In this document: positions 38,170 to 56,128 of the stretch, piece after piece
How the letters are laid out: each line of letters begins with the position of its first letter
Position numbering within the stretch: position 1 is the stretch's first letter
From: a virus
Virus record (IMG/VR): IMGVR_UViG_3300035703_000053
Location: 19,754 to 83,753 of that record
Reading direction: 5' to 3' (one strand)
DNA: 64,000 bases
Position numbers and translations under genes: made by a program
The notes under the pieces: model-generated
Told to the model about the DNA's origin: nothing
The model's database searches: none
The model's input: the letters and a program-made list of their open reading frames with translations, nothing else

Positions 38170-38196
38170 GGACCTGAGCATGTCCTTAAACTGCTC
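38170..38196 (+). ncRNA. 27-nt H-type pseudoknot, family E1
   Basis: GGAC-CT-GAGCA-T-GTCC-TTAAAC-TGCTC. Confidence 0.75.
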
Positions 38197-38219
38197 AGCA
38201 AACTTATCTATTACACACC

Positions 38220-38492
38220 ATGACTACACTTGAAGATTTTGCACAAGAAAACGCTATATATCCTTGGCTTGCCAATGATTGTATGGCGGATAATGCTTTA
38301 GATCAGAACTACAACGCTGACTTGCTTGATTCCATGGCTGACATGGCCTACGAACAAGAGCAAGCCATGCGTGAATCAAATGAAGATGACTGGACCCTTG
38401 TAGATCGAACCGATGGAATTGTATCGGTAGATCTACTTAATGGCTATGTAAACTTATTTGAAGACATTATCCATGATGACGAAACACACTGA
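38220..38492 (+). CDS. early acidic hypothetical protein
   Basis: Starts 23 nt after E1. Confidence 0.6.
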   Translation: MTTLEDFAQENAIYPWLANDCMADNALDQNYNADLLDSMADMAYEQEQAMRESNEDDWTLVDRTDGIVSVDLLNGYVNLFEDIIHDDETH

Positions 38493-38561
38493 TCCCACAA
38501 TGGATGACATAATTATTGTCATCCTTGCAATCATTTCAATCATCATTACTGAACTAATCTC

Positions 38562-38918
38562 ATGCTTCACCCCATCACTCAAGAAATCGCTGCAACCTTC
38601 GGGTACCAACCCTTCGACTCAGAAGAAGGTCAGCAGCAGTACCAAGCAGAGTGCGACTTCCAGAACGCACCAAAGGGAGCAATCCCCTGCACTGGTAACG
38701 TCTACAGAAACAAGCAGGGAGTCCTGCGTTGTTACTGGATTCCAGCCGGAGGTAACTACTCGGCCCAAGACAAGGAGGAACTCGAAGGCTGGTACGACAT
38801 CCCAAGCAACGAAGATATCGAGGAGTGGGTGTTCGACAGCATCTGTTTCACACCAGCAGATGATGAAGTAGAACCAGACCACCCTGATAGCTGGCTCTCA
38901 ATCCTTGGATTGATTTAA
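38562..38918 (+). CDS. hypothetical phage protein
   Basis: PSNEDIEEWVFDSIC.TP..DEVEPDHP.SWLSILGLI C-terminus. Confidence 0.65.
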   Translation: MLHPITQEIAATFGYQPFDSEEGQQQYQAECDFQNAPKGAIPCTGNVYRNKQGVLRCYWIPAGGNYSAQDKEELEGWYDIPSNEDIEEWVFDSICFTPADDEVEPDHPDSWLSILGLI

Positions 38919-39014
38919 CCTATGTCATATAACGCAAGTGTAATGATGACATATGCCATTCGCGAATAGCGAATATGTAAGTACCAGGGGTATTGCCAGA
39001 TAACCACTGGCCTA

Positions 39015-39054
39015 CCCCCTGCACCCCCGGCAGAAGTACCAGGAGATAACTTCT
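39015..39054 (+). ncRNA. pseudoknot, family F copy 2
   Basis: CCTG/CAGG and AGAAGT/ACTTCT around CCCCCGGC. Confidence 0.5.
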
Positions 39055-39087
39055 ATTAGTAAATAACCTAACCAATGCATTAAGCCA

Positions 39088-39420
39088 ATGGCACAAACCA
39101 AATCATCTCAACGTAAACAACAACCATCTCCTGATTACCCTCAAGGTAAGCACACAGTTACATTCACAGACATAGATGAAGAAGATTGGTGGTTAATCAC
39201 AAACTTATTCAAAGGACGTATTGATTACTTTAATCAACGTTTACAAGAAATTCAACATTCTAAAGATCCGGATTTAATACGGAGAAACACAGAGTGGCTA
39301 GAAGAAACAATAGAACGTTTGGAGATTAGACTACATCAGTTCGAAGATCAGATCAGTCCTACATACTTTAAGCGTAAGCGTGCAGAACATGCCGCTCGCA
39401 TAAAGCAACCAAACATTTAA
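39088..39420 (+). CDS. hypothetical protein
   Basis: 110 aa. Confidence 0.6.
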   Translation: MAQTKSSQRKQQPSPDYPQGKHTVTFTDIDEEDWWLITNLFKGRIDYFNQRLQEIQHSKDPDLIRRNTEWLEETIERLEIRLHQFEDQISPTYFKRKRAEHAARIKQPNI

Positions 39421-39491
39421 ACACTGGGCATTCATGTATATACATGTTGTAAGTCCCAGGGGGTTTAGAAATTACTCAACACACTCTTGTC

Positions 39492-39818
39492 ATGACAAAC
39501 AAAGTCTTGAAGTTTGAACCAACCATCTATAAGAAATCAGATGGTACAGAGGTTGTATTCCAAGTCAATGATTCCACACGCATTGACATGATCATTACAG
39601 AACTACAAGCTATCTATGCACGTGAACAGAAACGTGACTTGATGGCACTGCACCTTCCATATGAAGCACCTGAGCTGCTGCTGGAAGCCATTGGTCTGCT
39701 TGAGAAAGCAACTGAGTGGGGTGAACCAACAGACGATGATCTATGTGGTGAGCCACCAGTGACCATGGCTGAGATGCACTCAGCTGCATGGAAGGAACAT
39801 CAAGAAGCACACCGGTAA
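39492..39818 (+). CDS. hypothetical protein
   Basis: 108 aa; GEPPVTMAEMH..AW.EH C-terminus. Confidence 0.6.
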   Translation: MTNKVLKFEPTIYKKSDGTEVVFQVNDSTRIDMIITELQAIYAREQKRDLMALHLPYEAPELLLEAIGLLEKATEWGEPTDDDLCGEPPVTMAEMHSAAWKEHQEAHR

Positions 39819-39928
39819 CCATTCACATACCGCAAGGTTAAGAACTGGTTAACACAGTGGTCATGGCTTGACACCACCCGGTAGACTGGCCGTGACCACA
39901 CACTCAACCTCTACAAAACCTACATTAA

Positions 39929-40132
39929 ATGTCCGACAAAATCAGCATTCCAAACTCAATCAACTCCAACAATCTTGCTGCAATGCAACTTGTAGCCAAG
40001 ATGAAAGAGTCTGCAGACAAGCATGGTATTGGCTTCATTGGGGGATTTATATCTCCCGATGGAGAGAAATTTATTATGACGAATATGGATGATGAAGATT
40101 CCCAGGCCTTGCTGCCTGAGAATCTTAAGTGA
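39929..40132 (+). CDS. hypothetical protein
   Basis: 67 aa. Confidence 0.55.
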   Translation: MSDKISIPNSINSNNLAAMQLVAKMKESADKHGIGFIGGFISPDGEKFIMTNMDDEDSQALLPENLK

Positions 40133-40148
40133 ATCTTAAATTACACAC

Positions 40149-40454
40149 TTGAAAACAATGGATGATCGTGAAGCAATGATTGATGAAATCATTGATAAAT
40201 TCAATTTTGAGAAAGTGCACATTGCTATGACTGCACTTGATTGGAAATGGAAACCAACAGTTAGTAACACACCAGCTGTTCCATCAATCTCCAGGCTTAA
40301 GGAGATGGCTCGTCACTTGTTAAGTGAAGCTATCAACCATAAGGTTGTAGGTAGCGGAGGTTTCGAAGCTAAGTACATACCTAAGGTTGATAATGATCCA
40401 GAGTATTTCCATTTGAAATTCATTCTTTGCGAAGCTGATTCCTACGATGACTAA
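40149..40454 (+). CDS. hypothetical phage protein
   Basis: IDEIIDKFNFEKVH.AM.ALDW.W pattern. Confidence 0.65.
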   Translation: MKTMDDREAMIDEIIDKFNFEKVHIAMTALDWKWKPTVSNTPAVPSISRLKEMARHLLSEAINHKVVGSGGFEAKYIPKVDNDPEYFHLKFILCEADSYDD

Positions 40455-40770
40455 TCAAGAACACAACGGCAACCGTACGTGTATCTCGATGACTGACCTC
40501 TCCCCCGCCGCTGCTGCTGTCAGGGCCGCTTACTCGGAAGGCTGCTATTTGCTGATGCCGCACCGCAAGCATCAACTGGATGGCATGGCTTGCCCTGGGC
40601 TAACCTCCGCCATCCGCGCTATTGCGGATCAGGTGGTGCCAGAGGAACCGGAGCCAGATCAATCAGCTATGACGTTTTCAGATTGGAATCTCAAAACTGA
40701 AAGCTGGGATGCCCGCATGGCTACTCGCTCCGCGATCCTCGCCATTGCCTACGAGCTGGAGGCTGTTTGA
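40447..40770 (+). CDS. hypothetical protein, paralog of 45330..45593
   Basis: LSPAA.AV..A...AIRAIADQV...ILAIA.ELE. Confidence 0.65.
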   Translation: MTNQEHNGNRTCISMTDLSPAAAAVRAAYSEGCYLLMPHRKHQLDGMACPGLTSAIRAIADQVVPEEPEPDQSAMTFSDWNLKTESWDARMATRSAILAIAYELEAV

Positions 40771-40970
40771 TGATTAAACCTAAATCACCCATCAACTTCG
40801 ATAAAACTATTGCAGGATTTAATATCACGGAACATGGTATCAAATCATTTACTAAGTCAATTAAACTTGGTCCGTTACAAGTAACATTTAACGCCAGAGA
40901 ATCTGGTGTACGTGCATCTGTATCATTACCTGGTACAGGACTATCACGTCGTAACATCAAGTTACTTTGA
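40767..40970 (+). CDS. DUF4236-like small basic protein
   Basis: KSIKLGP...N....G...SVSLPGTGLSR. Confidence 0.55.
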   Translation: MMIKPKSPINFDKTIAGFNITEHGIKSFTKSIKLGPLQVTFNARESGVRASVSLPGTGLSRRNIKLL

Positions 40971-40976
40971 TTGACT

Positions 40977-41003
40977 CGTCCTGGGCATGACGTTAAACTG
41001 CCT
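40977..41003 (+). ncRNA. pseudoknot family E2
   Basis: CGTC-CT-GGGCA-T-GACG-TTAAAC-TGCCT. Confidence 0.75.
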
Positions 41004-41025
41004 ATGTTCACTCAACTTAAATCAC

Positions 41026-41202
41026 ATGGAACCAGGACTTACTTTCTTTGACAGGCTGTCAATTGCGAATTGCGCCAAGCAACGAGCAGAACAGAACTGT
41101 TGCGACAGACGTCGTTTTACCGACGAGTTTTTCACTGCGCGCATGTGGGCTCGCTATCGGTGCTACATCACACGTGAGATTCAATTCGTGGAGCCTGATT
41201 GA
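41026..41202 (+). CDS. hypothetical protein
   Basis: ATG 41026 after E2. Confidence 0.5.
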   Translation: MEPGLTFFDRLSIANCAKQRAEQNCCDRRRFTDEFFTARMWARYRCYITREIQFVEPD

Positions 41203-41450
41203 TGTCTGTACTTGCAGTCGAACACACTACTATTGATGGTAACGATGTTACTGTTACAGCAGTTGTTGATGAGATGCGTTTGCTTTATCGAGCAACACAT
41301 CTTGATCCTGAAGAGTATGCTCCTGCATTGTGCCAGGTATATTTCACAGTGGATGAGGGAGAACAAATCCCTACTGACGAAGATGGCTTCTGTCAGTATC
41401 TTGATTCACTCAATCTTGACTGGCAACTACTCCCTATAGAGAACGACTGA
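41199..41450 (+). CDS. acidic hypothetical protein
   Basis: 83 aa, coupled to neighbours. Confidence 0.6.
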   Translation: MMSVLAVEHTTIDGNDVTVTAVVDEMRLLYRATHLDPEEYAPALCQVYFTVDEGEQIPTDEDGFCQYLDSLNLDWQLLPIEND

Positions 41451-41680
41451 TGATTGGATTATCAATTGAATTCAAACGCTGGTACATTGTTATCAGGGGC
41501 CCCAAGGGTAGAATTTATTTGGCCACTGGATTTGCCAGAAGCATGCCTGTGTTTATGCCAACAGGTACACTGACTCTTGGCGACCATATAGATGACAGTC
41601 ACTCTGCAATCCTTGCAGATGAATGGAGAGAAGATGAAACGGATGAGGAACTGTTACAACAGTTAAAGGACATCCGTTGA
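41450..41680 (+). CDS. hypothetical protein
   Basis: TGATG coupling. Confidence 0.55.
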   Translation: MIGLSIEFKRWYIVIRGPKGRIYLATGFARSMPVFMPTGTLTLGDHIDDSHSAILADEWREDETDEELLQQLKDIR

Positions 41681-41685
41681 TCACA

Positions 41686-41712
41686 CGTCCTGGACATGAC
41701 GTTAAACTGTCC
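41686..41712 (+). ncRNA. pseudoknot family E3
   Basis: CGTC-CT-GGACA-T-GACG-TTAAAC-TGTCC. Confidence 0.75.
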
Positions 41713-41742
41713 GCTACACTACGAACTTACTTCGAACTCACC

Positions 41743-43422
41743 ATGGAATTTCAACTGCCATCTAACCTCAAGACTGAGCTAATCCCTTATGATGCCACGC
41801 TTAAGCAGCTGGCTAAACTTACCAAACAACCTGGTACTAAAGCAGCTAAGCCTAAGTACCCACTTGGTAATGTTAACGATTTAATTCCTGAAGACATTGT
41901 TGATCCTGCTGTATTGCAACAAGTTGTTGATCGCATCAACAATGTTTATGCACAAGATCGTTGCCATACGTTTAGACCAACAGACGAAGGTGTTAAATCA
42001 ACAGCTATCTTGTATCACTACGAACAACTGTGGATAGCTGCGTGGCTACCACCTGAGGGTGAAGAGAATGTATATGTATATGGATATGCTTATGCATTTA
42101 AAGATACAGAATCTGCACGTAAATTAAATCGTGACTTGATTGCTAATAATCAAATTGATACATTTAACAAGGTTAGTTACGGTCGCAGTCAATTCTTTGT
42201 ACGTAAACGTTACGTCACTGTAGATGATATTAAGAATGGTGATGACATACGTAATTGGAATCATAAATATATGTCATATGGTAAAGGTATAAACATTCGT
42301 CCTACTGTTATTTACTTTGAGAACGCATTGCGTCAAACAATTCCGCAATGGCAGGACTCACGTTATATTTTTGAGCGTCTTAAAGATTCATCTATTCTTA
42401 ATGTGTTGTTTGAAGGTAGGGGACAAGTTGATTCATACTTTAAAGATAAGCGTAATAGCTGGTTGCCTAGTGCCAGTGCAGTCATTGATCTGCTTGACAA
42501 CAATATTATTAACTTATCTCCAGCACCTGCTAATACTATTCGTCACATTGTAGATAAACCATTTTTCCGTAAGTGGATTCAACAACAGTGTGATGAAGTG
42601 CTAGCTATTTATAACAACAAAGATAATAAATCACGCAAGGCTATTCAACGTCCGTGGAACATAATTACTTTATTGTTTAATCGTCTTGCATATGTCAATA
42701 GGATTTGGCCTGACTGCCCTATTGATTACTACCAAAATAATATTGATACACTACTGACAATAGACTTTGGTTATTTTTCCAATAGGGCAGTTGATTATTG
42801 GCTGAATACATACATGCCAGTTGCTTCATTCTTTAATATTCTTAACAAGTTTAAAGAACAGAATACTAGTAACGGTTATACAAACAATGAGACAGGTTTG
42901 ACAATTGCCACTCTATATAATTGGCGTGACACATATCAAATGCTTGGTCAGATTCTTAGCGCTGACAAAACTATTGAACCACCACGTCGTTGGCGTCTCA
43001 ATGAATTCCATGATCATGTACAAGCAGAAGCATGGAAAATCCAACATCCTAATAGTTCATTGCCCCAGGATTTATTCCCTGCTCCAGTACGTATTACATA
43101 CAACGAACAGACCTGGTCATTCTTTCAGCCTATTGATACACATCAACTATCTAGCTGGGGTCAGGCTGTACGTAACTGCGTTGGTAATGCATCTAGCTAT
43201 GCAGAAGGTGTACGCAAGAAGAAACACTTTATTGTTCTGTGTATCATTGATGGCAAACCAACATTTACTGTGCAGCTCACCGTTGATAACGGCATGATGT
43301 CTGTCACGCAGATTGTTGGTACATCTAATGCCAGGCTTAGCTCTGATCAGCAAGCTGAATACACAGAAGCCTTCCGCCTTGCCTTGCAAGCACGGGAATC
43401 TGAGCTAGGATCAAAGGGTTGA
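41743..43422 (+). CDS. PcfJ-like domain protein
   Basis: C-terminal L.EFHD...P.DTHQLSSWGQAVRNCVG..SYA...Q..G..N; ATG 41743 preferred. Confidence 0.7.
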   Translation: MEFQLPSNLKTELIPYDATLKQLAKLTKQPGTKAAKPKYPLGNVNDLIPEDIVDPAVLQQVVDRINNVYAQDRCHTFRPTDEGVKSTAILYHYEQLWIAAWLPPEGEENVYVYGYAYAFKDTESARKLNRDLIANNQIDTFNKVSYGRSQFFVRKRYVTVDDIKNGDDIRNWNHKYMSYGKGINIRPTVIYFENALRQTIPQWQDSRYIFERLKDSSILNVLFEGRGQVDSYFKDKRNSWLPSASAVIDLLDNNIINLSPAPANTIRHIVDKPFFRKWIQQQCDEVLAIYNNKDNKSRKAIQRPWNIITLLFNRLAYVNRIWPDCPIDYYQNNIDTLLTIDFGYFSNRAVDYWLNTYMPVASFFNILNKFKEQNTSNGYTNNETGLTIATLYNWRDTYQMLGQILSADKTIEPPRRWRLNEFHDHVQAEAWKIQHPNSSLPQDLFPAPVRITYNEQTWSFFQPIDTHQLSSWGQAVRNCVGNASSYAEGVRKKKHFIVLCIIDGKPTFTVQLTVDNGMMSVTQIVGTSNARLSSDQQAEYTEAFRLALQARESELGSKG

Positions 43423-43464
43423 AGCCAACAGCCAGCATCCTCGTCACTGCTGGCTTTCATTCTT

Positions 43465-43716
43465 ATGTCAGGGTCCATTGCTCCAGGTGCAGACGATGAT
43501 CAACAGCCACTATCAGTGGAGGATCAACGGCTGCTTGCAATGGCCCTGGCCAACCTTGGTCAATACATTCATGACAACTCACCACACTATGAGTTGATTG
43601 AAGATCCAAGGAACGATGATGACTATGACACCTGGGAGGTGGGTATGGAACCACTACCAGGTGATCATACTTGGCGGTCTAATTCCATAGACGTAAGTCC
43701 AAGTAACGGGGTGTGA
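43465..43716 (+). CDS. acidic hypothetical protein
   Basis: 83 aa; stop overlaps the tRNA 5' end. Confidence 0.45.
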   Translation: MSGSIAPGADDDQQPLSVEDQRLLAMALANLGQYIHDNSPHYELIEDPRNDDDYDTWEVGMEPLPGDHTWRSNSIDVSPSNGV

Positions 43717-43792
43717 TGAAATTAGAAACCATGACTGACTTAAAATCAGTTGGCCTTTGGCCTTGCAGGTGCAAGTCCTGTCACCCCGACCA
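43707..43792 (+). tRNA. tRNA-Leu(TAA), with non-canonical D and T loops
   Basis: Acceptor CGGGGTG/CACCCCG plus ACCA; anticodon arm ACTGA-CTTAAAA-TCAGT; variable arm GGCC/GGCC; T arm GCAGG-TGCAAGT-CCTGT. Confidence 0.8.
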
Positions 43793-43813
43793 CTTACATA
43801 CTTAACTCAAACC

Positions 43814-44176
43814 ATGAACATCTTTGCTTGTTTCAAACACATTGTTCCAGAGTTCCATGCATACAGTGATGAAGACAAACGCTACAACATCGGTGCTACA
43901 TGGACTGGGCAAGATGGTTTGCATGACTATCATAATATTGAATTGAAGTATGTCCATAACTCTGAGCGTCTTGCGCTTCAGGGTGATCCACAACCTGATG
44001 GTAGCTGGAAGTATGTAGAACCCAATGGCAATGTCCATATCATTAGCGCTGAGCGTGCCAAGCATTTCATGGAAGCTACGCAACACAACGCAACAATCAT
44101 GTGCAACATGCTTGACCGCCTCAGAGACTTAGGTGTGACTGGTGAGACACTGGACACCAGTGCTGAACCCGTCTAG
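43814..44176 (+). CDS. hypothetical protein
   Basis: ATG 43814 directly after tRNA. Confidence 0.6.
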   Translation: MNIFACFKHIVPEFHAYSDEDKRYNIGATWTGQDGLHDYHNIELKYVHNSERLALQGDPQPDGSWKYVEPNGNVHIISAERAKHFMEATQHNATIMCNMLDRLRDLGVTGETLDTSAEPV

Positions 44177-44247
44177 TATTCATGTGGAATGTTCAGGCCC
44201 CGGTGCAAGCCGGGGTCTTTCTCTATGACACAACCCAACTTAAAACC

Positions 44248-44619: not shown

Positions 44620-44626
44620 CATTACT

Positions 44627-47693: not shown

Positions 47694-47720
47694 CGTCCTG
47701 GGTACGACGTTAAACTGCCT
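47694..47720 (+). ncRNA. pseudoknot family E4
   Basis: CGTC-CT-GGGTA-C-GACG-TTAAAC-TGCCT, just after a TATAGT -10-like box. Confidence 0.7.
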
Positions 47721-48546: not shown

Positions 48547-48581
48547 ATCGTGTACGATCTGTCAGTCTTCTTGATTGACAG

Positions 48582-48815: not shown

Positions 48816-51402
48816 TACATTTCTTATCTTTGATTGTGAGACGGACGGCCTCTATGATGCAGTGACAACTATCCATTGTCTTGTCATCTACGATGTCGTC
48901 CGACAACAAACTTTTAGCTATGGGCCTGACCGCATTGCTGATGCTCTTGCTCACCTGGCAACTGCTGATGTTTTGATTGGCCACAACATTATCTTTTATG
49001 ACATTCCTGTCATTGAAAAACTTTATTCAAGTTACGCATTTAAATCTACAAACCTTTCATTTAAATCCAAGCACGTCATCGACACACTTGTATGTACAAG
49101 ATTGATCTGGCCCAAGGAAGTTCTCTATGAACTTGACACAGAACAATATCCGCAGGTTCCAAAGGGCTTGCGTGGATCCGCATCACTTAAGGCATGGGGA
49201 TGGAGGCTGGCCGATCATAAGATCGACTTCAAAGATTTCTCTGAATACAGCCAAGAGATGCTTAAGTACTGTATGGCACCCCATCACAAGGTTTTGCGTG
49301 ATGACCTCCGCTGGATTGAATGCGGTTCTATTAATGTTGGTGATGCTATTCTTGGTTTCGATGAATACGGACCAAACAGAAAATTCAAAGCTACAAAAGT
49401 ACTCGTAAAAAACTTTGATGAAGCTGAGCTATTTGAAGTTGTTTTAGAGTCAGGTAAAGTATTTCATGTAACCAAAGAACATAGATGGCTGACTTCATTA
49501 GTCCGTACTGACGGCACTGGTTACCTTCAAGGTAATTGGGTAGAAACTCAGAACCTCCGTACAGATAGTTCTTGCGGCTCAAAAGTACCAAGATTTTTTG
49601 AGCCTTGGGAAGAAGACCTTTCTAAAGATGCTGGCTGGCTGGCAGGAATGTTTGATGGTGAAGGTACTATCTCAAAGAAACGTGTTGACTTTAGTATTGC
49701 TCAAAGACCTGGTATTACATTAAAGAGGCTTGAAGAACTTCTTTGTACTAAATACAATAAAGACTGTGTAAAACATGTCATTAAAAAAAATTCAGATTGT
49801 TTGTCTTTACGTTTTACAGGTAATCAATATTCAAAGATTGAGTTTCTTGGCAAGATTAGGCCAGAGAGATTGATAAATAAATTTAGTTTTGATCAAATGG
49901 GGCGCATGGAAATTAAATCTTCGTGTTTAGTGGATCGTGTCATATCCGTTAAAAGCATTGGCAAAGGAACAATAGTTAAGTTGACAACTGATTCTTCTAC
50001 TTTTGTATTAGATGGTTATCCAATGCACAACTGCCAGCAGGACGTGGCAGTCACTAAGAAGCTTTATGAACTTATCCAAAAACAAAACTATCCAGAAGCA
50101 GCGCTCAAGCTGGAGCATGAACTTGCTGTCTCCATTAACAAACAAATTAGAGCAGGTATTCCTTTTGATGTTGATGCATGCCTTGATCTCGTGGATGATC
50201 TACGAGCAAAGGAAAAAGAACTTGAGTTACAACTAAAGGAAATTTTTCCACCTATTAAACACGAATCAATTTTTGTTCCAAAGGTAAACAACAAGAAACG
50301 TGGTTATGTTAAAGGTCAACCCTTCACTAAAGTTACGTATCAGGAGTTTAATCCTGGGTCTCGCGATCAGATTGTACAGCGTCTCACAGAAAAATATGGA
50401 TGGCAGCCCGAAGCCACCACTGAGAAAGGTAATCCAATTCTTAATGATGATGTACTTGAAACTTTGCCGTACCCAGAAGCAAAACCATTAGCTGAATATA
50501 TGTTGATCAAGAAACGTCTTGGTCAGATTGCTGATGGTAATAATGCTTGGCTCAAGTTAGTAACTGAAGACTGCAAGATCCATGGTGATGTAGTCACTAA
50601 TGGATGTATAACAGGAAGGGCATCTCATCGGACACCAAACATGGCTCAGGTTCCAGCAAGCTATTCACCTTATGGGAAGGAATGTCGCAGCCTTTTCTAT
50701 GCACCAAACAATTGGGATCTTATTGGTATTGATGCCAAAGCACTAGAGCTACGTTGTCTAGCTGGTTATCTTGCTCTCTGGGATGACGGTGAATACGCAA
50801 GTATAGTCACTAATCCCGATATTGATATTCATGTTTATAACCAGCAGATGTTTGGTGTTGCTACACGTGATATATCAAAGAGACTGCTATACGCCCTATT
50901 ATATTCTTGTGGTGCAATGAAAGCTGGTACACTAATTGATCCGAATGAAAAAGATGAAACAGTTCTCAGAAGACTAGGAAGTAATGCAATCAATTCATTC
51001 ATGAAAGGTGTGCCGGCACTTAAGAAACTTAAAGAGCAGATTGAAGAAAAGATTGCAACGCGTGGTTATCTCAAGGGATTAGATGGTCGTGTGTTGTATT
51101 GCCGTTCTGCATTCAAAGGATTGAACGTATTACTACAGGCAAGTGGCGCAGCAATCATGAAGCAAGTAGTAGTGAATGTACATAACAACATTGAGAACAG
51201 TCTTGGACTAGAGCATGGCCAGGATTGGGAGCAACTCTTGTTCATACACGATGAGATTGAGGTGGCATGTAGTCCCAGATACACAGAAGACATCAAGACT
51301 GAAGCACTGAAAGCCTTTGAGGAAGCTGGAGAATTCTTTAGCTTCCGTTGTCCTATTGAGGGAGATGCTAAAGTTGGTCGCACTTGGTACGATGTTCACT
51401 AA
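48754..51402 (+). CDS. polA: family A DNA polymerase (T7-like) with 3'-5' exonuclease and intein
   Basis: FDCETDG, GHNIIFYDIP, FNPGSRDQI, TGR.SH..PNMAQVP, DAKALELR, K.LLYALLY, HDEI. Confidence 0.95.
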   Translation: MTQKLTVKNSQFKISPGSSTDTFLIFDCETDGLYDAVTTIHCLVIYDVVRQQTFSYGPDRIADALAHLATADVLIGHNIIFYDIPVIEKLYSSYAFKSTNLSFKSKHVIDTLVCTRLIWPKEVLYELDTEQYPQVPKGLRGSASLKAWGWRLADHKIDFKDFSEYSQEMLKYCMAPHHKVLRDDLRWIECGSINVGDAILGFDEYGPNRKFKATKVLVKNFDEAELFEVVLESGKVFHVTKEHRWLTSLVRTDGTGYLQGNWVETQNLRTDSSCGSKVPRFFEPWEEDLSKDAGWLAGMFDGEGTISKKRVDFSIAQRPGITLKRLEELLCTKYNKDCVKHVIKKNSDCLSLRFTGNQYSKIEFLGKIRPERLINKFSFDQMGRMEIKSSCLVDRVISVKSIGKGTIVKLTTDSSTFVLDGYPMHNCQQDVAVTKKLYELIQKQNYPEAALKLEHELAVSINKQIRAGIPFDVDACLDLVDDLRAKEKELELQLKEIFPPIKHESIFVPKVNNKKRGYVKGQPFTKVTYQEFNPGSRDQIVQRLTEKYGWQPEATTEKGNPILNDDVLETLPYPEAKPLAEYMLIKKRLGQIADGNNAWLKLVTEDCKIHGDVVTNGCITGRASHRTPNMAQVPASYSPYGKECRSLFYAPNNWDLIGIDAKALELRCLAGYLALWDDGEYASIVTNPDIDIHVYNQQMFGVATRDISKRLLYALLYSCGAMKAGTLIDPNEKDETVLRRLGSNAINSFMKGVPALKKLKEQIEEKIATRGYLKGLDGRVLYCRSAFKGLNVLLQASGAAIMKQVVVNVHNNIENSLGLEHGQDWEQLLFIHDEIEVACSPRYTEDIKTEALKAFEEAGEFFSFRCPIEGDAKVGRTWYDVH
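49270..50031 (+). mobile_element. intein (254 aa) with LAGLIDADG remnant
   Basis: KY|CMAPHHKVL...TKEHRW...WLAGMFDGEG...YPMHN|CQQD; removal restores ExoIII YCQQD. Confidence 0.92.
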
Positions 51403-51407
51403 TGTCC

Positions 51408-51434
51408 CGTCCCAGGTAAGACGTTAAACTGCCT
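51408..51434 (+). ncRNA. pseudoknot family E5
   Basis: CGTC-CC-AGGTA-A-GACG-TTAAAC-TGCCT. Confidence 0.75.
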
Positions 51435-51455
51435 TAACACTTTCTTTTTGATCCG

Positions 51456-52265
51456 ATGAATTTTGCAACAGTTTGTGCACAACTTGCCGAGGATCCTCGG
51501 GAGGTTTATACCAGTGCAACCTCAACTGCTATCCGCTGTAACGTGATGTTGCCTCCAGTAGGTAACAAAGCACCGACTCTGATTGAACTGAATGCTTACG
51601 GCAAAACTTCCGAGCGACTTGCGCGTCTCCAAAAGAACGCACAGATTTACATTCACGGCGCCAAGCTACGTTTCGATCTTGACGCAAGAGCGTACTCACT
51701 ACATGGAGGAGTTATTGCACAAGTTAACGATCAGTTCCCAATCCTCAACACAGTCATCCTTAGTGGACGTTGTGTAAAAGATATTGATACTGCCGATCAA
51801 CGTGCATTTAAAACTACTGCGTCAGGTCTGATGATTTGTAATCAGACATTGGCAGTAAGCACCGGAAGGAATCAATCAGACTTGTTCAACTTCTATGCCA
51901 TCAATTCCCATGAAGACAAGCTAAACCAGGCTCAGCTGCTAGCTGACTTCACGCGCAAGGGCGTGGGGCTGACGATCCAGGGTCGGTTGGTTACCGATGC
52001 CTGGAAGGACAATGACTCTGGTGAGAAGAAAGCTGTGACTAAGATACAGCTAGTGTCAATGACTCTTGCACCTAAGCCCCAGGGTAGTGGGCAAGAAATC
52101 AAACCGCAAACTACGGTTAGCTCATCGGAGAATGTGACTTCCCTTTGGGGTGGTCGCACTGTGGAAGAGTCACAAGATGTGTGGAATCAAGCATCTGGTG
52201 GTGGACTTCCCGATCTGCCGGGCCAATATGGTACGGCACCTGACCTTGACGAAATCCCTTTCTGA
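51456..52265 (+). CDS. ssb: single-stranded DNA-binding protein (tandem OB folds)
   Basis: NTVILSGR, KG..LTIQGRL.TD.WKD..SGEK, DEIPF tail. Confidence 0.8.
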   Translation: MNFATVCAQLAEDPREVYTSATSTAIRCNVMLPPVGNKAPTLIELNAYGKTSERLARLQKNAQIYIHGAKLRFDLDARAYSLHGGVIAQVNDQFPILNTVILSGRCVKDIDTADQRAFKTTASGLMICNQTLAVSTGRNQSDLFNFYAINSHEDKLNQAQLLADFTRKGVGLTIQGRLVTDAWKDNDSGEKKAVTKIQLVSMTLAPKPQGSGQEIKPQTTVSSSENVTSLWGGRTVEESQDVWNQASGGGLPDLPGQYGTAPDLDEIPF

Positions 52266-52268
52266 ACC

Positions 52269-52511
52269 ATGGCGCTCCAAATGAACATTACTGAACTTGA
52301 CTTCAGTTTGCTTGATGCAATTGCCTATGAGTATTTCATGGACAATCTAAATGAATGTATTGAAGTGAACAGCGAAGATGGCGCTGATGTACTATCTCAA
52401 TCTGTTGAACTTCTTGCAGAACTTTCATTCTGTATTGGAGAAATGTTTGTACAAAAACGTCTGAACTATCTTGAGCGCAAGCACAAAAAAGAACAGGAGA
52501 GCAATGACTAA
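52269..52511 (+). CDS. hypothetical protein
   Basis: 80 aa. Confidence 0.55.
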   Translation: MALQMNITELDFSLLDAIAYEYFMDNLNECIEVNSEDGADVLSQSVELLAELSFCIGEMFVQKRLNYLERKHKKEQESND

Positions 52512-52713
52512 TTTTAAATTGGTAAAACGTGCGTTTACATTTACTTTTGTGGAAGATGACTTTAGTTGCGTTCTTGAGAGTCAAGCTGTAACCACTGATG
52601 AAGTTATGGTACACCTCATTCAATTTCTTCGGGGGTGTGGGTACCAGGATGAAAGCATCTATGACGCAATGCGTGAGGCGATTGATGAGCGTGATGCTTT
52701 CAACAAATGCTGA
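52504..52713 (+). CDS. hypothetical protein
   Basis: AGGAG RBS; FLRGCGY motif. Confidence 0.6.
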   Translation: MTNFKLVKRAFTFTFVEDDFSCVLESQAVTTDEVMVHLIQFLRGCGYQDESIYDAMREAIDERDAFNKC

Positions 52714-52778
52714 AATGGCCCTGCACACTGGCCTCCGGACGGCCTTAAAAGCGTCGATGTCCAAACCCTGAAAAAACC

Positions 52779-53894
52779 ATGACTACAACTCCGGTTGACA
52801 TGATGTCTGAAGAATGGATGGACAACATCCAGGCTTCTGCTGCTTCTAATTATGGTTCTGTTCCTTCTCTGAAAACTTCTACAAAAATGACTGTGAAGAA
52901 AACGTCTGCTCTTGCAACTCGTGGTATCGAGTCTTTCAAACTATTTCAATCTAAAGAGTTTGTATCTGGTTACCAGAATCTGGTGACAATTCAGCCGTTG
53001 AATAAGTCTAAGACTCGTGGTTGGTTTGTTCGTAACTCTGACCTGGATACTTGCGGCTGGAGTGCAACTGAAGATCAGTTTGCCAAAGGTTCTGTTATCT
53101 GGAACTACAAGCAAACATTTGGTATGGCACCTAACACTTCTGTTGAAGAGGGCCTTAATTTCACTGAGCCTCGTCTCCAGATCCTATTGCGTTCTCCCCT
53201 CATGGTTGAGGAAACCACAGGGATGCGTCAAACGATTGGAACCTTTGACGATCCAGATGTCAAAGAATTGTTTGAAGCCGATAAGATTGCATCCGACCTT
53301 GCCAACAGCAAGGGCGAGATGTACAAGCGTAAGTACAGTGTACGTACAAAGTATCTGGTGTATATCCTGACCCAGGACAATAAGCGTGCTCACAAAATTC
53401 CTATGGTGCTTACCCTCAAGGGTCTTAATGGTACTGACGTCAGCGACAAAGTCAAGCTGTACGAAAGGGAAATGTCTAAGTGCTTGAGCAAGGCACTAGA
53501 CGCTGAAGTACCACTGAGCTTTAATGAAAAGTTCTATGCCACTACCGTATTTGCTCCGGTACTTGCCAATGAGATGCGCGGCGCCAACAACGTTGAGATC
53601 TGTGCAATTGAATCTTTTGACATACCTGATTACAGCAACCAAGAAGCCGCTGTCGAATCACTAAATCGCTTGTCAATTCCTGATGAAGATCGTGAATCTA
53701 CTTGGAAGTTCCAAGAGTTGTTCCAGGATTACATCAACCAGCATTCTCGGCAAGATGCAGAGAAACTTGGTGGTGCATATGGAATTAAAACTGGTGTAGA
53801 GATTCTGCCTGTATCTCGCACCACGGATGCAGTTGATGTGAAAGCATTAGCTGGTAGCTATGATGTCACGGGTGAGGATGCTAGTCTGTCGTGA
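52779..53894 (+). CDS. hypothetical protein in replication module (DUF5895-like, tentative)
   Basis: 371 aa; PRLQIL.RSPL and HKIP.VLTLKG segments. Confidence 0.6.
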   Translation: MTTTPVDMMSEEWMDNIQASAASNYGSVPSLKTSTKMTVKKTSALATRGIESFKLFQSKEFVSGYQNLVTIQPLNKSKTRGWFVRNSDLDTCGWSATEDQFAKGSVIWNYKQTFGMAPNTSVEEGLNFTEPRLQILLRSPLMVEETTGMRQTIGTFDDPDVKELFEADKIASDLANSKGEMYKRKYSVRTKYLVYILTQDNKRAHKIPMVLTLKGLNGTDVSDKVKLYEREMSKCLSKALDAEVPLSFNEKFYATTVFAPVLANEMRGANNVEICAIESFDIPDYSNQEAAVESLNRLSIPDEDRESTWKFQELFQDYINQHSRQDAEKLGGAYGIKTGVEILPVSRTTDAVDVKALAGSYDVTGEDASLS

Positions 53895-54114
53895 CTTTCT
53901 TTGGGATGCTATTGAAATGACTTGAGTAATTCTCGTTCATTAATTCCATAGCATCCCTGACTAATCCTTTAATTGCCATCTGCCGTGTTGTTGCAATCTT
54001 TGTCAGCAGCACGGCAATTTCTTTTAGCTCACTAAGTGATGTACATTCATTAATTGTTCTGAACATCTTTTCTTGCCAGAACAAATCTTCTGGAGACGAT
54101 TCGAAATGTAACAT
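53881..54114 (-). CDS. divergent NblA-like helix-hairpin protein (tentative)
   Basis: SPEDLFWQEKMFRTINECTSLSELKEIAVLL; lone antisense gene in this arm. Confidence 0.45.
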   Translation of the reverse strand: MLHFESSPEDLFWQEKMFRTINECTSLSELKEIAVLLTKIATTRQMAIKGLVRDAMELMNENYSSHFNSIPKKVTTD

Positions 54115-54194
54115 GCTATTAATTTGGTTTTGTTTATTCTACTCACATAGTTAAATCCTGTTTTGAATTAAAGGTTGTATTTAGAAACACATTC

Positions 54195-54392
54195 ATGAAG
54201 CCCGAACACAAAGCAATGTTTAAGTATGGAGGATCCTTTGGCCTGGTTGGTGCAGGGCTGCTTGCTGCTGTGGGCACTCCTGTGGCATGGGCTGCGCTGG
54301 CTTACGGAACCTACAAGGTATCCAAGGCGGCGTACCAAAACGCCAAGCTCAGTGCTATGCTCCAGGAAGACGACGGCAATTGGCGCGTCTAG
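54195..54392 (+). CDS. small hydrophobic protein
   Basis: Gly/Ala-rich predicted TM segment. Confidence 0.55.
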   Translation: MKPEHKAMFKYGGSFGLVGAGLLAAVGTPVAWAALAYGTYKVSKAAYQNAKLSAMLQEDDGNWRV

Positions 54393-54416
54393 TCAATCTC
54401 AACCTAATCTCAACCT

Positions 54417-55355
54417 ATGTCTACCCAAGTACAAGAAGAACTTAACGCAGCGCAAGCGTGCATCTACACACGTACCAACATTGCGCGTGCGTACCAGGGC
54501 TTTGATGACACCGAAGTTGCTGGCATTTATTTGCGAGGTGATCATTGTGTTGTGGTGCATCGCGATGGTGTTGAGCAGACTTTTGAGCGGTCATTGATTA
54601 AAGCTGCGCACCAGTCTTATACTCATAGACTCAAAGACTTCTTTTCTTACCTTGGTCCCCATTATCGTGGCCCTAGTGTATGGCATAACAATGCTTACAT
54701 TATGTTTAAGGGCTGGCACTACACACACTCACTCGGACACCTGACTTCAAATGCAAAACTACAACAGCACTGGGCCGACAAATTTATACACCTATCAGAC
54801 TCTGCCAAAGTCACAACCCTCCTCCAGTCCAACCAAACGGACCTGGGGCATCTGGTTGCGCCGGACGGGATGCGGCTTTCAAATCGGCCGATTGATATGG
54901 ACGCTGAGTTGGTGGAAAACGAAAGTTCCATTCAGGCACCTGAACCTTGGTGTTCATGCGGGTCCTTTCAGCGTCAGCTCAACAATGTGGATTTGTTCCG
55001 ACAAGAGATTGAAGGATTCAAGCCATGGTGCATCCACTTGACTTGGTTCCACAAGTACCGTGAACTGTTGTGCAAACGCACAGAAGCACGTAACGCATCA
55101 ACCAGTGGAACGCCAGATAAGTGTGTAGCCTGGTGGTATGCACCACCTGCAGACCACACCAATGATGGACGCTTTGTGCTTTTGTATACCAAGTCTGGTG
55201 CACAGGCTCCGTTGACGCACTGGCGTACCTACAAACCAAAGGAAATTTTTACTCAGCACCAGGCGTGGGATTTGTTTTTCAGTATGATGGAGGCTGGCTA
55301 CGTACCATTTCCTGGTGTTGCTTTGCCTCAACTTCAATCAGCAATTAAGAAATGA
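54417..55355 (+). CDS. SWIM zinc-finger protein
   Basis: WCSCGSF...KPWCIHL. Confidence 0.65.
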   Translation: MSTQVQEELNAAQACIYTRTNIARAYQGFDDTEVAGIYLRGDHCVVVHRDGVEQTFERSLIKAAHQSYTHRLKDFFSYLGPHYRGPSVWHNNAYIMFKGWHYTHSLGHLTSNAKLQQHWADKFIHLSDSAKVTTLLQSNQTDLGHLVAPDGMRLSNRPIDMDAELVENESSIQAPEPWCSCGSFQRQLNNVDLFRQEIEGFKPWCIHLTWFHKYRELLCKRTEARNASTSGTPDKCVAWWYAPPADHTNDGRFVLLYTKSGAQAPLTHWRTYKPKEIFTQHQAWDLFFSMMEAGYVPFPGVALPQLQSAIKK

Positions 55356-55385
55356 AAACACACGACATCTCAAAGAACTAAATAA

Positions 55386-55637
55386 ATGACTGATGACATT
55401 CTTGATTATGCTCGTCAGCTTGCAACTAAACCTATGACCAACAACTCAAACAACAACTGGCTTCGAAAATTAAAGATTGAATGTATTGAAGAACAAGAGG
55501 ATGGTAGCTTGACTATCCAAATTGAATGGGATGAAACAGACCCAGACCTTGAGTACTGGGTATCATTAGGGAAGGAAGGACAAAAAACCTTTTTCCTTGA
55601 TTTGTTAACCAACGCAATCACTAGCCATGGCAATTGA
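55386..55637 (+). CDS. hypothetical protein
   Basis: EEQEDGSLTIQIEWDETDP motif. Confidence 0.55.
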   Translation: MTDDILDYARQLATKPMTNNSNNNWLRKLKIECIEEQEDGSLTIQIEWDETDPDLEYWVSLGKEGQKTFFLDLLTNAITSHGN

Positions 55638-55941
55638 TCTTTACGGCATTGATGAAGATCGTTACATTGAAATCTTTAAAGAGAAAGCTGGATTGTTGTA
55701 TCGCACTATGCGGGAAATGATTCGGGTATCTCTTGAAGAGCAAGTGGATCTTAACCACTGGCCGCACGAAACAATTTGGCGTATGTATGAAAGCATTTCA
55801 TATGATGCAAACGAAGAAGCTCGGCAGATTACAAAAAAGGAATGCCCAAGCAAACTTCCTGACTATGATCTGGGTCCAACCAGGGGTGAACTGATGGATG
55901 AAATCCAAAACATCAAAAAGATGTTGGACACACCTGAGTGA
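55627..55941 (+). CDS. hypothetical protein
   Basis: 104 aa. Confidence 0.6.
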   Translation: MAIDLYGIDEDRYIEIFKEKAGLLYRTMREMIRVSLEEQVDLNHWPHETIWRMYESISYDANEEARQITKKECPSKLPDYDLGPTRGELMDEIQNIKKMLDTPE

Positions 55942-55946
55942 TCAGT

Positions 55947-55973
55947 CGTCCTGGTCATGACGTTAAACTGACC
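55947..55973 (+). ncRNA. pseudoknot family E6
   Basis: CGTC-CT-GGTCA-T-GACG-TTAAAC-TGACC. Confidence 0.75.
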
Positions 55974-56125: not shown

Positions 56126-56128
56126 GCT

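What the first reader, a model, noticed from the sequence alone, without database searches (positions are those of the whole stretch)
38170..55973. Family E: six copies of a 27-nt H-type pseudoknot with covariation in both stems
Seen at 38170, 40977, 41686, 47694, 51408 and 55947. Layout is S1(4)-CY-S2(5)-N-S1'-TTAAAC-S2'. S1 is CGTC/GACG or GGAC/GTCC. S2 is GAGCA/TGCTC, GGGCA/TGCCT, GGACA/TGTCC, GGGTA/TGCCT, AGGTA/TGCCT or GGTCA/TGACC. Length and the TTAAAC loop are invariant. Four copies start 5-6 nt after a stop, and one follows a -10-like box. They head the PcfJ, GP88/pol, SSB and Gp157 units. Known: the stem, loop, A-rich tail topology recalls preQ1-I riboswitches, though the sequence differs. 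Inference: a ligand or protein binding site, an antitermination signal, or a block to 5'-3' decay (cyanobacteria encode RNase J).
Basis: partly seen in the sequence, partly recalled or inferred. Interest (0 to 1): 0.82.

Follow-up and report, generated by a model that had tools for sequence, protein, structure and literature searches.

The report
Phage coremin-like RNA pseudoknot family
Six copies of a tiny, tightly folded RNA knot sit between the replication genes of this cyanophage, and because the same knot occurs in phages of many bacterial groups and closely matches a plant-virus element that stops RNA-degrading enzymes, it probably shields the downstream message, though that is untested.

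Summary
The window holds exactly six 27-nt H-type pseudoknots, all on the + strand, each with 9 of 9 pairs. A covariance model scores them 35.9-45.9 bits; the next hit scores 11.3.

The motif is not private to this phage. S-EIV1 has seven copies. It also occurs in more than 100 viral contigs, in named phages of Staphylococcus, Lactobacillus, Mycobacterium, Nostoc and Vibrio, and in bacterial chromosomes of many phyla. Both stems covary strongly.

The motif lies in the sense strand. It sits no closer than 5 nt after an upstream stop codon and usually 20-23 nt before the next start codon.

No Rfam family matches it (preQ1-I, GP20-b and RF01106 all fail). Its core, GUC..GAC-N-UUAAACU, and its invariant bases match the "coremin" Xrn1-resistant RNA of plant and fungal RNA viruses. 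The exact tetraloop coremin sequence also occurs in dsDNA phages, at the same position before the scaffold gene.

Best reading (about 0.45): a protein-independent roadblock to 5'-to-3' decay, most likely by RNase J, that protects downstream cistrons. Caveats are the missing hp2 hairpin, a Vibrio phage copy, and the lack of RNA data.

This scan has found the same family before on other DNA. I found no paper describing it.

The parts
38170..38196 (+). PK1, the S1 variant GGAC/GTCC with S2 GAGCA/TGCTC. It lies 23 nt before a 90-aa ORF (38220-38492) with no Pfam match.
   Evidence: (35.9 bits)
40977..41003 (+). PK2, CGTC/GACG with GGGCA/TGCCT. It lies 6 nt after the stop of ORF 40767..40970 and 22 nt before the ATG at 41026 (58 codons, in frame with listed ORF 40987..41202).
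   Evidence: 45.9 bits
41686..41712 (+). PK3, with S2 GGACA/TGTCC. It lies 5 nt after the stop of ORF 41450..41680 and 30 nt before the PcfJ-like gene (41743-43422).
   Evidence: (43.5 bits)
47694..47720 (+). PK4, with S2 GGGTA/TGCCT (two G.U pairs). It lies 106 nt after thyX (46931-47587). A 7-bp hairpin follows 5 nt downstream. It lies 43 nt before the GP88 gene start at 47764, and the family-A DNA polymerase gene (48754-51402) follows.
   Evidence: (43.4 bits)
51408..51434 (+). PK5, with L1 CC and S2 AGGTA/TGCCT. It lies 5 nt after the DNA polymerase stop and 21 nt before the SSB gene (51456-52265).
   Evidence: (40.0 bits)
55947..55973 (+). PK6, with S2 GGTCA/TGACC. It lies 5 nt after the stop of ORF 55627..55941 and 32 nt before a 39-aa hydrophobic ORF (56006-56125). 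The Gp157-like gene (56129-56833) comes next.
   Evidence: (43.1 bits)

Best explanation
Each copy is transcribed as part of the sense-strand polycistronic mRNA. It folds, without any protein, into a compact H-type pseudoknot of the coremin type: a 4-bp S1, a 2-nt L1 that begins with an invariant C, a 5-bp S2, one junction nucleotide, and the A-rich L3 UUAAAC lying along S1. I propose that it is a direction-specific mechanical roadblock to enzymes that move 5' to 3' along RNA, above all the exoribonuclease RNase J of cyanobacteria, Bacillota and Actinomycetota. After a cut or 5'-end attack upstream, decay would stop at the knot. The downstream cistron (SSB, GP88/polymerase or PcfJ-like here; scaffold and capsid genes in siphophages) would then survive with a protected 5' end. 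Shown: the structure, its conservation, its placement, and its likeness to coremin. Inferred: that it resists a bacterial exonuclease, and that this is its selected function.
For: (1) The structure is real and is read from the sense strand. The test set was 97 distinct sequences: all 91 distinct 27-mers hit by a pattern that did not constrain S2 positions 7-9/25-27 or the outer S1 pair, plus the six window copies. In it, 94.2% of pair cells are standard pairs, against 23-51% when partners are slid. There are 26-35 double-sided changes at each free S2 pair and 28 at the outer S1 pair, and 0 of 500 shuffles reach the covariation score. G.U pairs number 78 against 12 A.C. Flanking long frames are on the same strand in 85 of 103 (upstream) and 86 of 103 (downstream) viral instances.
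(2) Likeness to coremin. The papers print coremin as GUCCGAAGACGUUAAACUAC, and the phage motif shares GUCC..GAC-N-UUAAACU. Of the seven invariant columns in 76 verified members, six (C5, A11, A19-21, U23) map onto the positions whose mutation abolishes Xrn1 stalling: loop Y5 and A7, and spacer A15-A17 and U19. The seventh, G24, sits at essential position 20 but is G where coremin has A. The U-to-A variation seen at positions 17/18 corresponds to the tolerated U13/U14 changes. The stem needs pairing rather than sequence in both. A selection experiment produced a Watson-Crick coremin with the same loop-to-spacer pairing register.
(3) The exact tetraloop coremin consensus occurs in at least 114 viral-contig loci (34 distinct contexts). 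These include phage head modules ordered minor head, motif, scaffold (phrog_2303), major head, verified in 3 of 3 contigs tested. That is the position the 27-nt form occupies before scaffold families phrog_194 (13 instances) and phrog_172 (13 instances).
(4) An xrRNA blocks purified bacterial RNase J1 by a general mechanical mechanism.
(5) Placement suits a folded element on translated mRNA just ahead of a ribosome-binding site. A stop triplet lies exactly 5 nt upstream in 42 of 119 instances, against 3-12 at other offsets. No ORF of 60 or more codons ends closer than 5 nt. The distance to the next ATG peaks at 20-23 nt (33 of 87), with 7 of 87 below 20.
(6) Host bias. The motif is in 17 of 400 sampled Bacillota genomes and 0 of 400 sampled Pseudomonadota genomes. 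Full-length RNase J-like genes are present in 3 of 5 motif-bearing genomes tested.
Against: No RNA data exist for this phage, so no 5' end has been seen at any copy. Coremin and its Watson-Crick variant both need a hairpin (hp2) directly downstream for Xrn1 resistance. The phage motif has none: a hairpin of 4 or more bp starts within 6 nt in 21.5% of 130 viral instances, against 30% in shuffles, and in 1 of 6 window copies. The loop does not fit YGAD/YGNNAD, because its second base is a pyrimidine. Ordinary frameshifting pseudoknots of similar size do not stall Xrn1, so the fold alone does not prove resistance. A perfect copy lies in a lineage of Vibrio phages (27 records), whose host class lacks RNase J as far as I recall, and there it is antisense to the annotated genes. 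Two of 5 motif-bearing bacterial genomes (incomplete MAGs) show no full-length RNase J. Alphaproteobacteria are said to have RNase J, yet the Pseudomonadota sample had no hit. Coremin itself has not been tested against RNase J in the papers I read.
Confidence: 0.45

Rival explanations
1. The target is the ribosome, not a nuclease. The knot would be a barrier or insulator between cistrons. It would stop post-termination or sliding ribosomes from entering the next gene, or set the 5' boundary of an unstructured, SD-less leader, so that each downstream gene is initiated independently.
For: Coremin blocks scanning ribosomes and strongly resists elongating ones, giving 22-30% frameshifting in vitro. 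The knot sits exactly between the expected footprints of a terminating ribosome (5-nt minimum after the stop) and an initiating one (20-23 nt before the ATG). The leaders after the window copies are G-poor and have no SD. In the bacterial subfamily, a tiny ORF terminates inside the knot.
Against: Copies lie 3-11 nt upstream of tRNA genes in 5 of 253 instances, and others lie after terminator-like hairpins or far from any upstream ORF. No ribosome arrives from upstream in those settings. Siphophage copies are 38-61 nt from SD-bearing starts.
Confidence: 0.2
2. The knot is a binding site or decoy for a conserved protein. It could be a translational operator, as in the T4 gene 32 leader, or an RNA that titrates a host nuclease or defence protein.
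For: The unpaired bases are invariant across phyla. Copy number reaches 6-7 per genome. One copy heads the SSB gene. The element behaves as an autonomous module placed wherever non-coding space exists.
Against: Carrier phages are unrelated (podo-, sipho- and myophages and a Microviridae record), so no shared phage protein is expected. The conserved bases are those needed for protein-free function in coremin. No partner was identified.
Confidence: 0.12
3. The knot acts on the upstream RNA, either protecting its 3' end against 3'-to-5' exonucleases or serving as a pause or termination signal.
For: Tight linkage to the upstream stop codon. Stop-5 nt-knot-3 nt-tRNA arrangements, where RNase P cleavage would leave the knot at a 3' end. 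A T-run follows the knot in 36 of 253 instances.
Against: Most copies have no T-run. Nine of 253 directly follow a terminator-like hairpin, which would make a second 3' protector redundant. From what I recall, xrRNA-type folds block in one direction only. A plain GC hairpin would do this job, so the conserved loops are left unexplained.
Confidence: 0.08
4. The knot is a riboswitch-like sensor of a small ligand, related in topology to preQ1-I.
For: It occurs in several phyla, has a pseudoknot and has several invariant bases, which together meet the criterion for 'sophisticated' RNAs quoted. The stem/loop/A-rich-tail layout recalls preQ1-I.
Against: No Rfam riboswitch hit, even in 71-75-nt scans at E <= 10. 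The junction has one unconserved base. There is no expression platform. Downstream genes are SSB, scaffold, PcfJ-like, Rrf2 and tRNAs, with no metabolic theme.
Confidence: 0.04
5. The knot stimulates -1 frameshifting or stop-codon readthrough of the upstream gene.
For: The 5-nt spacer is the classical distance for such stimulators, and coremin does stimulate frameshifting.
Against: Slippery heptamers ending 4-9 nt upstream number 5 in 256 instances (0.83 per offset), against 1.04 per offset elsewhere, and none occurs in the six window copies. The stop codon itself occupies the shift position.
Confidence: 0.02
6. The element acts at the DNA level, as a promoter whose -10 is TAAACT or as a protein-binding palindrome.
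For: TAAACT resembles a -10 hexamer. The consensus scan twice used it that way, at 40971-40999 and 41691-41720.
Against: Free covariation with G.U pairs on one strand only (78 against 12), no conserved -35 region, and copies that overlap the ends of ORFs.
Confidence: 0.02

Closest known systems
Coremin motif / xrRNA_C of plant and fungal RNA viruses (Dilweg, Gultyaev, Olsthoorn 2019, PMC6546385, Results read; Dilweg et al. 2023, PMC10520033, outline and passages)
   Same: A 3-4-bp hp1 built on GUC/GAC that needs pairing rather than sequence. The first loop base is a pyrimidine and the penultimate loop base is A. The spacer is N-UUAAACU with essential A-A-A-C-U. The first two U tolerate change to A. 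It lies in non-coding gaps, close after ORFs.
   Different: The loop has 8 nt (C-Y-N3-Y-A-N), not YGAD or YGNNAD. Five canonical loop-to-tail pairs replace the proposed non-canonical contacts. Position 20 is G, not A. There is no hp2 hairpin. The hosts are DNA phages and bacteria, where Xrn1 does not exist.
Watson-Crick coremin, xrRNA_WCC (Dilweg et al. 2023, PMC10321173; passages seen)
   Same: Canonical antiparallel pairing between the hp1 loop and the bases after UUAAA(C). A single essential L1 base. BWYV-like dimensions. It resists ribosomes without hp2.
   Different: WCC was selected in vitro, has a 3-bp S2 in a tetraloop, and was found in nature only in one picorna-like virus. It still needs hp2 for Xrn1 resistance. 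The phage form has a 5-bp S2 and no hp2.
Luteovirus-type -1 frameshifting pseudoknots (BWYV, PLRV), as described in PMC10321173 and from my recall
   Same: A 26-28-nt H-type knot, a short L1 beginning with C, one junction base, and an A-rich loop in the S1 minor groove.
   Different: There is no slippery site upstream. BWYV does not stall Xrn1. The loop sequences differ.
preQ1-I riboswitch aptamer (RF00522)
   Same: A small H-type knot with an A-rich 3' loop.
   Different: No model match, no conserved junction base and no link to queuosine genes.
Rfam RF03003 (GP20-b) and RF01106 (SBWMV1_UPD-PKb)
   Same: GP20-b was named by earlier notes of this scan as an RNA upstream of phage scaffold-like genes. 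RF01106 is a plant-virus pseudoknot whose consensus shows CGUUAAACUGU.
   Different: RF03003 gives 0 matches in the window's genome, in 5 motif-bearing records, and in 15 scaffold loci. RF01106 scores 14.9 bits against a gathering score of 38 on PK3 and gives nothing on PK2.

Membership tests
Coremin / xrRNA_C | hp1 stem of 3-4 bp in which pairing, not sequence, matters | tested here: met
   S1 is GUC/GAC in most copies, with compensatory GAC/GUC, CUC/GAG and GUG/CAC variants. The outer pair shows 28 double-sided changes.
Coremin / xrRNA_C | hp1 loop consensus YGAD or YGNNAD | tested here: not met
   The loop is 8 nt, C-Y-N-N-N-Y-A-N. The first base (C) and penultimate base (A) fit, but the second base is a pyrimidine, not G. 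The paper notes that one predicted octaloop was resistant.
Coremin / xrRNA_C | Conserved spacer UUAAACUAC, with A16-A20 essential | tested here: inconclusive
   UUAAACU is kept (A19-21 and U23 invariant, C22 in 90% or more). The base matching A20 is an invariant G, and the next base is variable and paired.
Coremin / xrRNA_C | A second hairpin (hp2) directly after the spacer, required for Xrn1 resistance | tested here: not met
   A hairpin of 4 or more bp starts within 6 nt in 21.5% of 130 viral instances against 30% in shuffles, and in 1 of 6 window copies.
Coremin / xrRNA_C | Stalls a 5'-to-3' exoribonuclease | not testable with these tools
   Needs an in vitro digestion or 5'-end mapping. 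No RNA run was listed.
Watson-Crick coremin (xrRNA_WCC) | Canonical antiparallel pairing of loop bases with the bases after the A-rich spacer | tested here: met
   Five pairs. Pairs 7-27, 8-26 and 9-25 covary (31, 35 and 26 double-sided changes). Pair 10-24 is C-G or U.G, and 11-23 is A-U.
preQ1-I riboswitch (RF00522) | Match to the family covariance model | tested here: not met
   No hit at gathering score or at E <= 10, including the 75-nt and 71-nt scans.
preQ1-I riboswitch (RF00522) | Association with queuosine/preQ1 genes and an expression platform (features as I recall them) | tested here: not met
   Downstream genes are SSB, GP88, PcfJ-like, scaffold, Rrf2 and tRNA.
Rfam RF03003 GP20-b | Match to the family covariance model | tested here: not met
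   0 matches at E <= 10 in the own genome and in 5 motif-bearing records; 0 at E <= 5 in 9 scaffold loci and 0 at E <= 1 in 6 tetraloop loci.
-1 programmed frameshift signal | Slippery heptamer 4-9 nt upstream of the pseudoknot | tested here: not met
   5 in 256 instances over six offsets, against 1.04 per offset elsewhere; none in the window.

The most novel reading that the evidence does not exclude
This is the first natural exoribonuclease-resistant RNA class of the prokaryotic world. The same coremin fold that plant and fungal RNA viruses use against Xrn1 would be used by DNA phages of many phyla, and by some bacterial operons, against RNase J. It would serve as a portable 27-nt '5' cap' that sets the stability of individual cistrons inside polycistronic mRNAs. 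In the bacterial version it could be switched off by translation of a tiny upstream ORF that ends inside the knot.
Probability: 0.35. Interest if true: 0.9.

Novelty: new variant of a known kind. Interest (0 to 1): 0.8.

Why it matters
xrRNAs are known only from eukaryotic RNA viruses. The xrRNA paper I read states that RNase J1 is an enzyme xrRNAs "never naturally encounter". A coremin-type knot spread through DNA phages and bacteria would show that this solution is used across domains. It would give a sequence-defined, 27-nt, protein-free module for segmental mRNA stabilisation in RNase J-containing bacteria, including Staphylococcus, Bacillus, mycobacteria and cyanobacteria. It could explain how siphophages boost scaffold and capsid expression inside a single late operon. 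The more than 100 natural covarying variants would also help solve the still unknown coremin structure. Even if the target proves to be the ribosome or a protein, this is an uncatalogued RNA with invariant bases in several phyla, which is the class of motif that usually has a demanding biochemical role.

Tried and rejected
**Rfam.** The gathering scan of the whole window and the E <= 10 scan of 38000-56200 found only tRNA and chance-level hits. Short-stretch scans gave RF01106 at 14.9 bits for PK3 and nothing relevant for PK2. RF03003, which earlier notes of this scan named as closest, matched nothing in 21 tested genomes and loci.

**Expression data.** No RNA holder was listed for window 38000-47900.

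**Promoter and terminator scan.** Promoter-like sites number 24 against 35.7 expected. Terminator-like sites number 14 against 14.0. Nothing is specific next to the copies.

**hp2 hairpin.** Not present.

**Frameshifting.** No slippery sites.

**RNase J census.** The 14-genome control line does not say which genomes pass the cut-off, so it gave no usable host table. In five motif-bearing genomes the result was mixed, 3 of 5.

**Small ORF of the bacterial subfamily.** No Pfam or NCBIfam match. I ran no further search on it.

**Literature.** Searches on pseudoknot/bacteriophage/intergenic, pseudoknot/scaffolding protein, S-EIV1, exoribonuclease-resistant/bacteriophage/RNase J and xrRNA/phage listed no paper on a natural phage xrRNA or on this motif. 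Two coremin papers hold 0 occurrences of 'phage', 'bacteri' or 'RNase J'. For PMC6546385 I read only the outline and Results. A preprint on coevolutionary mining and the 224-motif paper (passages only) do not describe it. Supplements were closed and may list further coremin variants or Rfam-candidate motifs.

**Recalled resemblances.** I considered the pistol ribozyme P1/linker, the HDV-like outer pseudoknot, T-loops, boxA, integron attC core sites, ToxI-type antitoxin repeats and N4-type hairpin promoters. I dropped them because the defining parts are absent. These comparisons are from memory, not from a tool.

Full report
**What is in the window**

Of 29 TTAAAC hexamers on the + strand, six have 4/4 S1 and 5/5 S2 pairs. 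Of 28 on the - strand, none has more than 7/9.

The window is bases 19754-83753 of an 83,753-bp virus record, and the whole record holds only these six copies. A covariance model (R1, built from 76 distinct verified members, two of them from the window) finds the six at 35.9-45.9 bits. The next hit scores 11.3 bits. Each stem alone is weak, at -2.2 to -4.4 kcal/mol.

- PK3: a PcfJ-like 559-aa gene.
- PK4: GP88 followed by a family-A DNA polymerase.
- PK5: SSB.
- PK6: a 39-aa ORF, then a weak Gp157 match.

**It is a large family, not a private repeat**

The nearest named relative is Synechococcus phage S-EIV1. It has seven copies, all on the coding (minus) strand of its replication module, including the positions before its SSB, 254-aa and 585-aa genes.

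Of the 135, 111 have a full S1 and at least 4 of 5 S2 pairs, although the pattern did not ask for that.

A 33-nt blastn query hit 137 named phage records at E <= 10. I read the sequence in six of them and all six are true copies:
- Staphylococcus phage B166
- Lactobacillus phage phiEF-1.1
- Mycobacterium phage Labelle, whose L3 is AAAAAC
- Nostoc phage NMeng1
- S-EIV1
- Vibrio phage D456

A stricter pattern found 123 matches in 120 bacterial genome loci, again limited by rows. They come from Bacillota, Desulfobacterota, Omnitrophota, Planctomycetota, Cyanobacteria and other phyla.

**Covariation**

The test set was 97 distinct sequences: every distinct 27-mer from the matches, paired or not, plus the six window copies. 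In it, 94.2% of pair cells are standard pairs, against 23-51% when the partners are slid. The three unconstrained S2 pairs show 31, 35 and 26 double-sided changes, and the outer S1 pair shows 28. None of 500 shuffles reaches the covariation score.

G.U pairs number 78 and A.C pairs 12, so the structure is read from one strand. That strand is the sense strand of the flanking genes in 85 of 103 (upstream) and 86 of 103 (downstream) viral instances.

In 76 verified members the invariant bases are C5, A11, A19-A21, U23 and G24. S1 shows compensatory GUC/GAC, GAC/GUC, CUC/GAG and GUG/CAC forms.

**Placement**

A stop triplet lies exactly 5 nt upstream in 42 of 119 non-redundant instances, while other offsets hold 3-12. 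Eighty-three instances have an ORF of 60 or more codons ending within 60 nt upstream. In 28 of them it ends at a 5-nt spacer, and in none does it end closer.

The distance from the knot to the first ATG of a long ORF peaks at 20-23 nt (33 of 87), with a second cluster at 29 nt (10). Seven of 87 are shorter than 20.

From general knowledge of ribosome footprints, these are about the closest positions at which a structure stays folded next to a terminating ribosome and an initiating one. This is inference.

Downstream genes fall into recurrent groups:
- In S-EIV1-like phages: SSB (9), a GP88-like gene (9) and a PcfJ-like gene (12).
- In siphophages: two unrelated scaffold families, phrog_194 (13) and phrog_172 (13).
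- In bacteria: an Rrf2 regulator (15).

Minority contexts:
- A tRNA gene 3-11 nt downstream: 5 of 253.
- A strict terminator-like hairpin directly upstream: 9 of 253.
- A T-run directly downstream: 36 of 253.

**What it is not**

No Rfam family matches. A 75-nt scan around PK3 gave only RF01106, a plant-virus pseudoknot, at 14.9 bits against a gathering score of 38. A 71-nt scan around PK2 gave nothing relevant.

RF03003 (GP20-b) was named by earlier notes of this scan. It matched nothing in the window's genome, in five motif-bearing records, or in 15 scaffold loci.

There are no slippery heptamers at frameshift distance. Promoter-like and terminator-like sites around the copies are at or below chance.

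**The coremin connection**

The papers print the coremin motif as GUCCGAAGACGUUAAACUAC. Their mutational map reads as follows:
- a 3-4-bp stem built on G2-U3-C4 / G9-A10-C11, where compensatory changes restore function;
- a loop of YGAD or YGNNAD;
- a spacer U13-U14-A15-A16-A17-C18-U19-A20-C21, in which U13 and U14 tolerate change and A16-A20 do not;
- a second hairpin, hp2, required directly downstream.

The phage motif aligns as N-G-W-C / C5-Y6 / N7-N9-Y10-A11 / N12 / G-W-C-N / U17-U18-A19-A20-A21-C22 / U23-G24-N25-N27. Six of its seven invariant bases fall on coremin's essential ones: C5 on Y5, A11 on A7, A19-21 on A15-17 and U23 on U19. The seventh, G24, aligns with essential A20 but is a G. 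C22, present in 90% or more of members, falls on C18. Its variable U17/U18 fall on the tolerant U13/U14.

The authors propose that coremin is a BWYV-like H-type pseudoknot with non-canonical loop-spacer contacts. They selected a Watson-Crick version with canonical contacts in the same register. The phage motif is a natural, longer Watson-Crick version.

Coremin stalls Xrn1, blocks scanning ribosomes and drives 22-30% frameshifting in vitro. A flaviviral xrRNA stops purified bacterial RNase J1.

**A direct bridge between the two forms**

I searched the viral contigs with the tetraloop coremin consensus (19 specified positions). It occurs in at least 114 loci, limited by rows, giving 34 distinct contexts.

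Some are small contigs with a hairpin directly downstream. Fifteen of the 34 have a hairpin of 4 or more bp within 2 nt, and these look like the RNA-virus form.

Others are 20-60-kb contigs in which the motif directly follows a terminator-like hairpin and T-run. In the three I checked, it lies between the minor head protein (phrog_581) and the scaffold (phrog_2303) and major head (phrog_422) genes. That is the position the 27-nt form occupies in other siphophages. The two forms are therefore interchangeable in phage genomes.

**Mechanism and its weak points**

I propose a protein-free, direction-specific roadblock to 5'-to-3' decay that protects the cistron or RNA downstream of it.

Support beyond the coremin likeness comes from host bias. 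The pattern is in 17 of 400 sampled Bacillota genomes (the reversed-pattern control hit 3) and in 0 of 400 sampled Pseudomonadota genomes. Full-length RNase J-like genes are in 3 of 5 motif-bearing genomes.

Against it:
- The hp2 hairpin that both coremin forms need for Xrn1 resistance is absent (21.5% against 30% in shuffles; 1 of 6 in the window). I infer, without a test, that the three extra S2 pairs take its stacking role.
- The loop breaks the YGAD rule.
- A Vibrio phage lineage carries a perfect copy, antisense to its annotated genes.
- Two of 5 motif-bearing MAGs lack a clear RNase J.
- No RNA data could be obtained.

The main rival is a ribosome-directed barrier or insulator, which the same geometry and coremin's ribosome-blocking activity also fit.

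**Novelty**

I found no paper that reports coremin-like or any xrRNA elements in phages or bacteria (searches; word counts). The family is absent from Rfam 15 as tested here. The scan itself has met it before on other genomes (notes e1-6061275, e1-5908510, e1-5161344 and e1-498679). I class it as a new variant of a known kind: coremin-type pseudoknots, here in DNA phages and bacteria, with a Watson-Crick S2 and no hp2.

Noticed in passing
L222:2147-2237 (- strand) and about 60 other genome-contig loci among L129-L248: This is a bacterial subfamily. The knot is almost always NGTCCCGGGCANGACNTTAAACTGCCC, often with the outer S1 pair mismatched. It overlaps or abuts the 3' end of a tiny ORF encoding M..(K/R)(Y/F)M(L/I)RP(V/I)AHC(K/S)(E/G)GC.. 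of about 20-30 aa. The stop falls at motif offsets -8 to +17, often at the TAA inside L3. The peptide has no Pfam or NCBIfam match. In Omnitrophota and Planctomycetota loci an Rrf2 regulator and a 4Fe-4S ferredoxin follow. Translation of the ORF would unfold the knot, which suggests a translation-controlled switch.
   Followed up: partly
L253:12020-12153 (- strand); also L296, L302, L362, L336, L269: In phage head modules the exact tetraloop coremin core is followed by two or three further units. Each is a 3-bp hairpin (GGG/CCC or GAG/CTC, loop AGACA) followed by (A/T)AAACTGA. They form a tandem array of coremin-like units in the scaffold-gene leader, and the first such hairpin may play the hp2 role.
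   Followed up: partly
L131:6594-6630, L218, L071, L138, L245 (leaders between the knot and the scaffold or head gene start): There are second conserved hairpins between the knot and the SD in Bacillota prophages. One type has a covarying stem, the loop C(A/T)ACCATA, and abuts AGGAGG. Another reads TTCGTGGTCGTTGCCACGTAAAA. A third type, in L129, L176, L073, L154 and L212, has GGTTC..GAGTC arms followed by GGGCAA or GGGTAA.
   Followed up: no
window 41713-41742 and orthologous leaders in L014, L026, L027, L035, L095, L107, L108, L117: The 26-30-nt leader of the PcfJ-like gene is itself conserved. It is G-poor, with repeated ACTACGAACT / GAACT(C/T)ACC units and no SD. It may be a translational enhancer for an SD-less start.
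   Followed up: no
L249:299-325 (Vibrio phage D456 g1, OZ195695.1 around 55528-55554): A perfect copy (TCTC/GAGA with GAGCA/TGCTC) is shared by 27 Vibrio phage records. It lies antisense to the annotated small CDSs on both sides. Either the annotation of these small ORFs is wrong or this copy is used differently.
   Followed up: partly
MG945738.1 1064-1090 (Microviridae sp., 4731 nt): A 26/27 match to PK3 in a small ssDNA phage record, lying in an unannotated stretch.
   Followed up: no
L070:10707-10760 (- strand): One viral contig has the knot 23 nt upstream of an RtcB-type RNA ligase gene (phrog_1075, E = 1e-149).
   Followed up: no
window 43707-43792 (+) and 63101-63174 (-): The phage encodes tRNA-Leu(TAA) and tRNA-Cys(ACA). 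Neither is adjacent to a knot.
   Followed up: no
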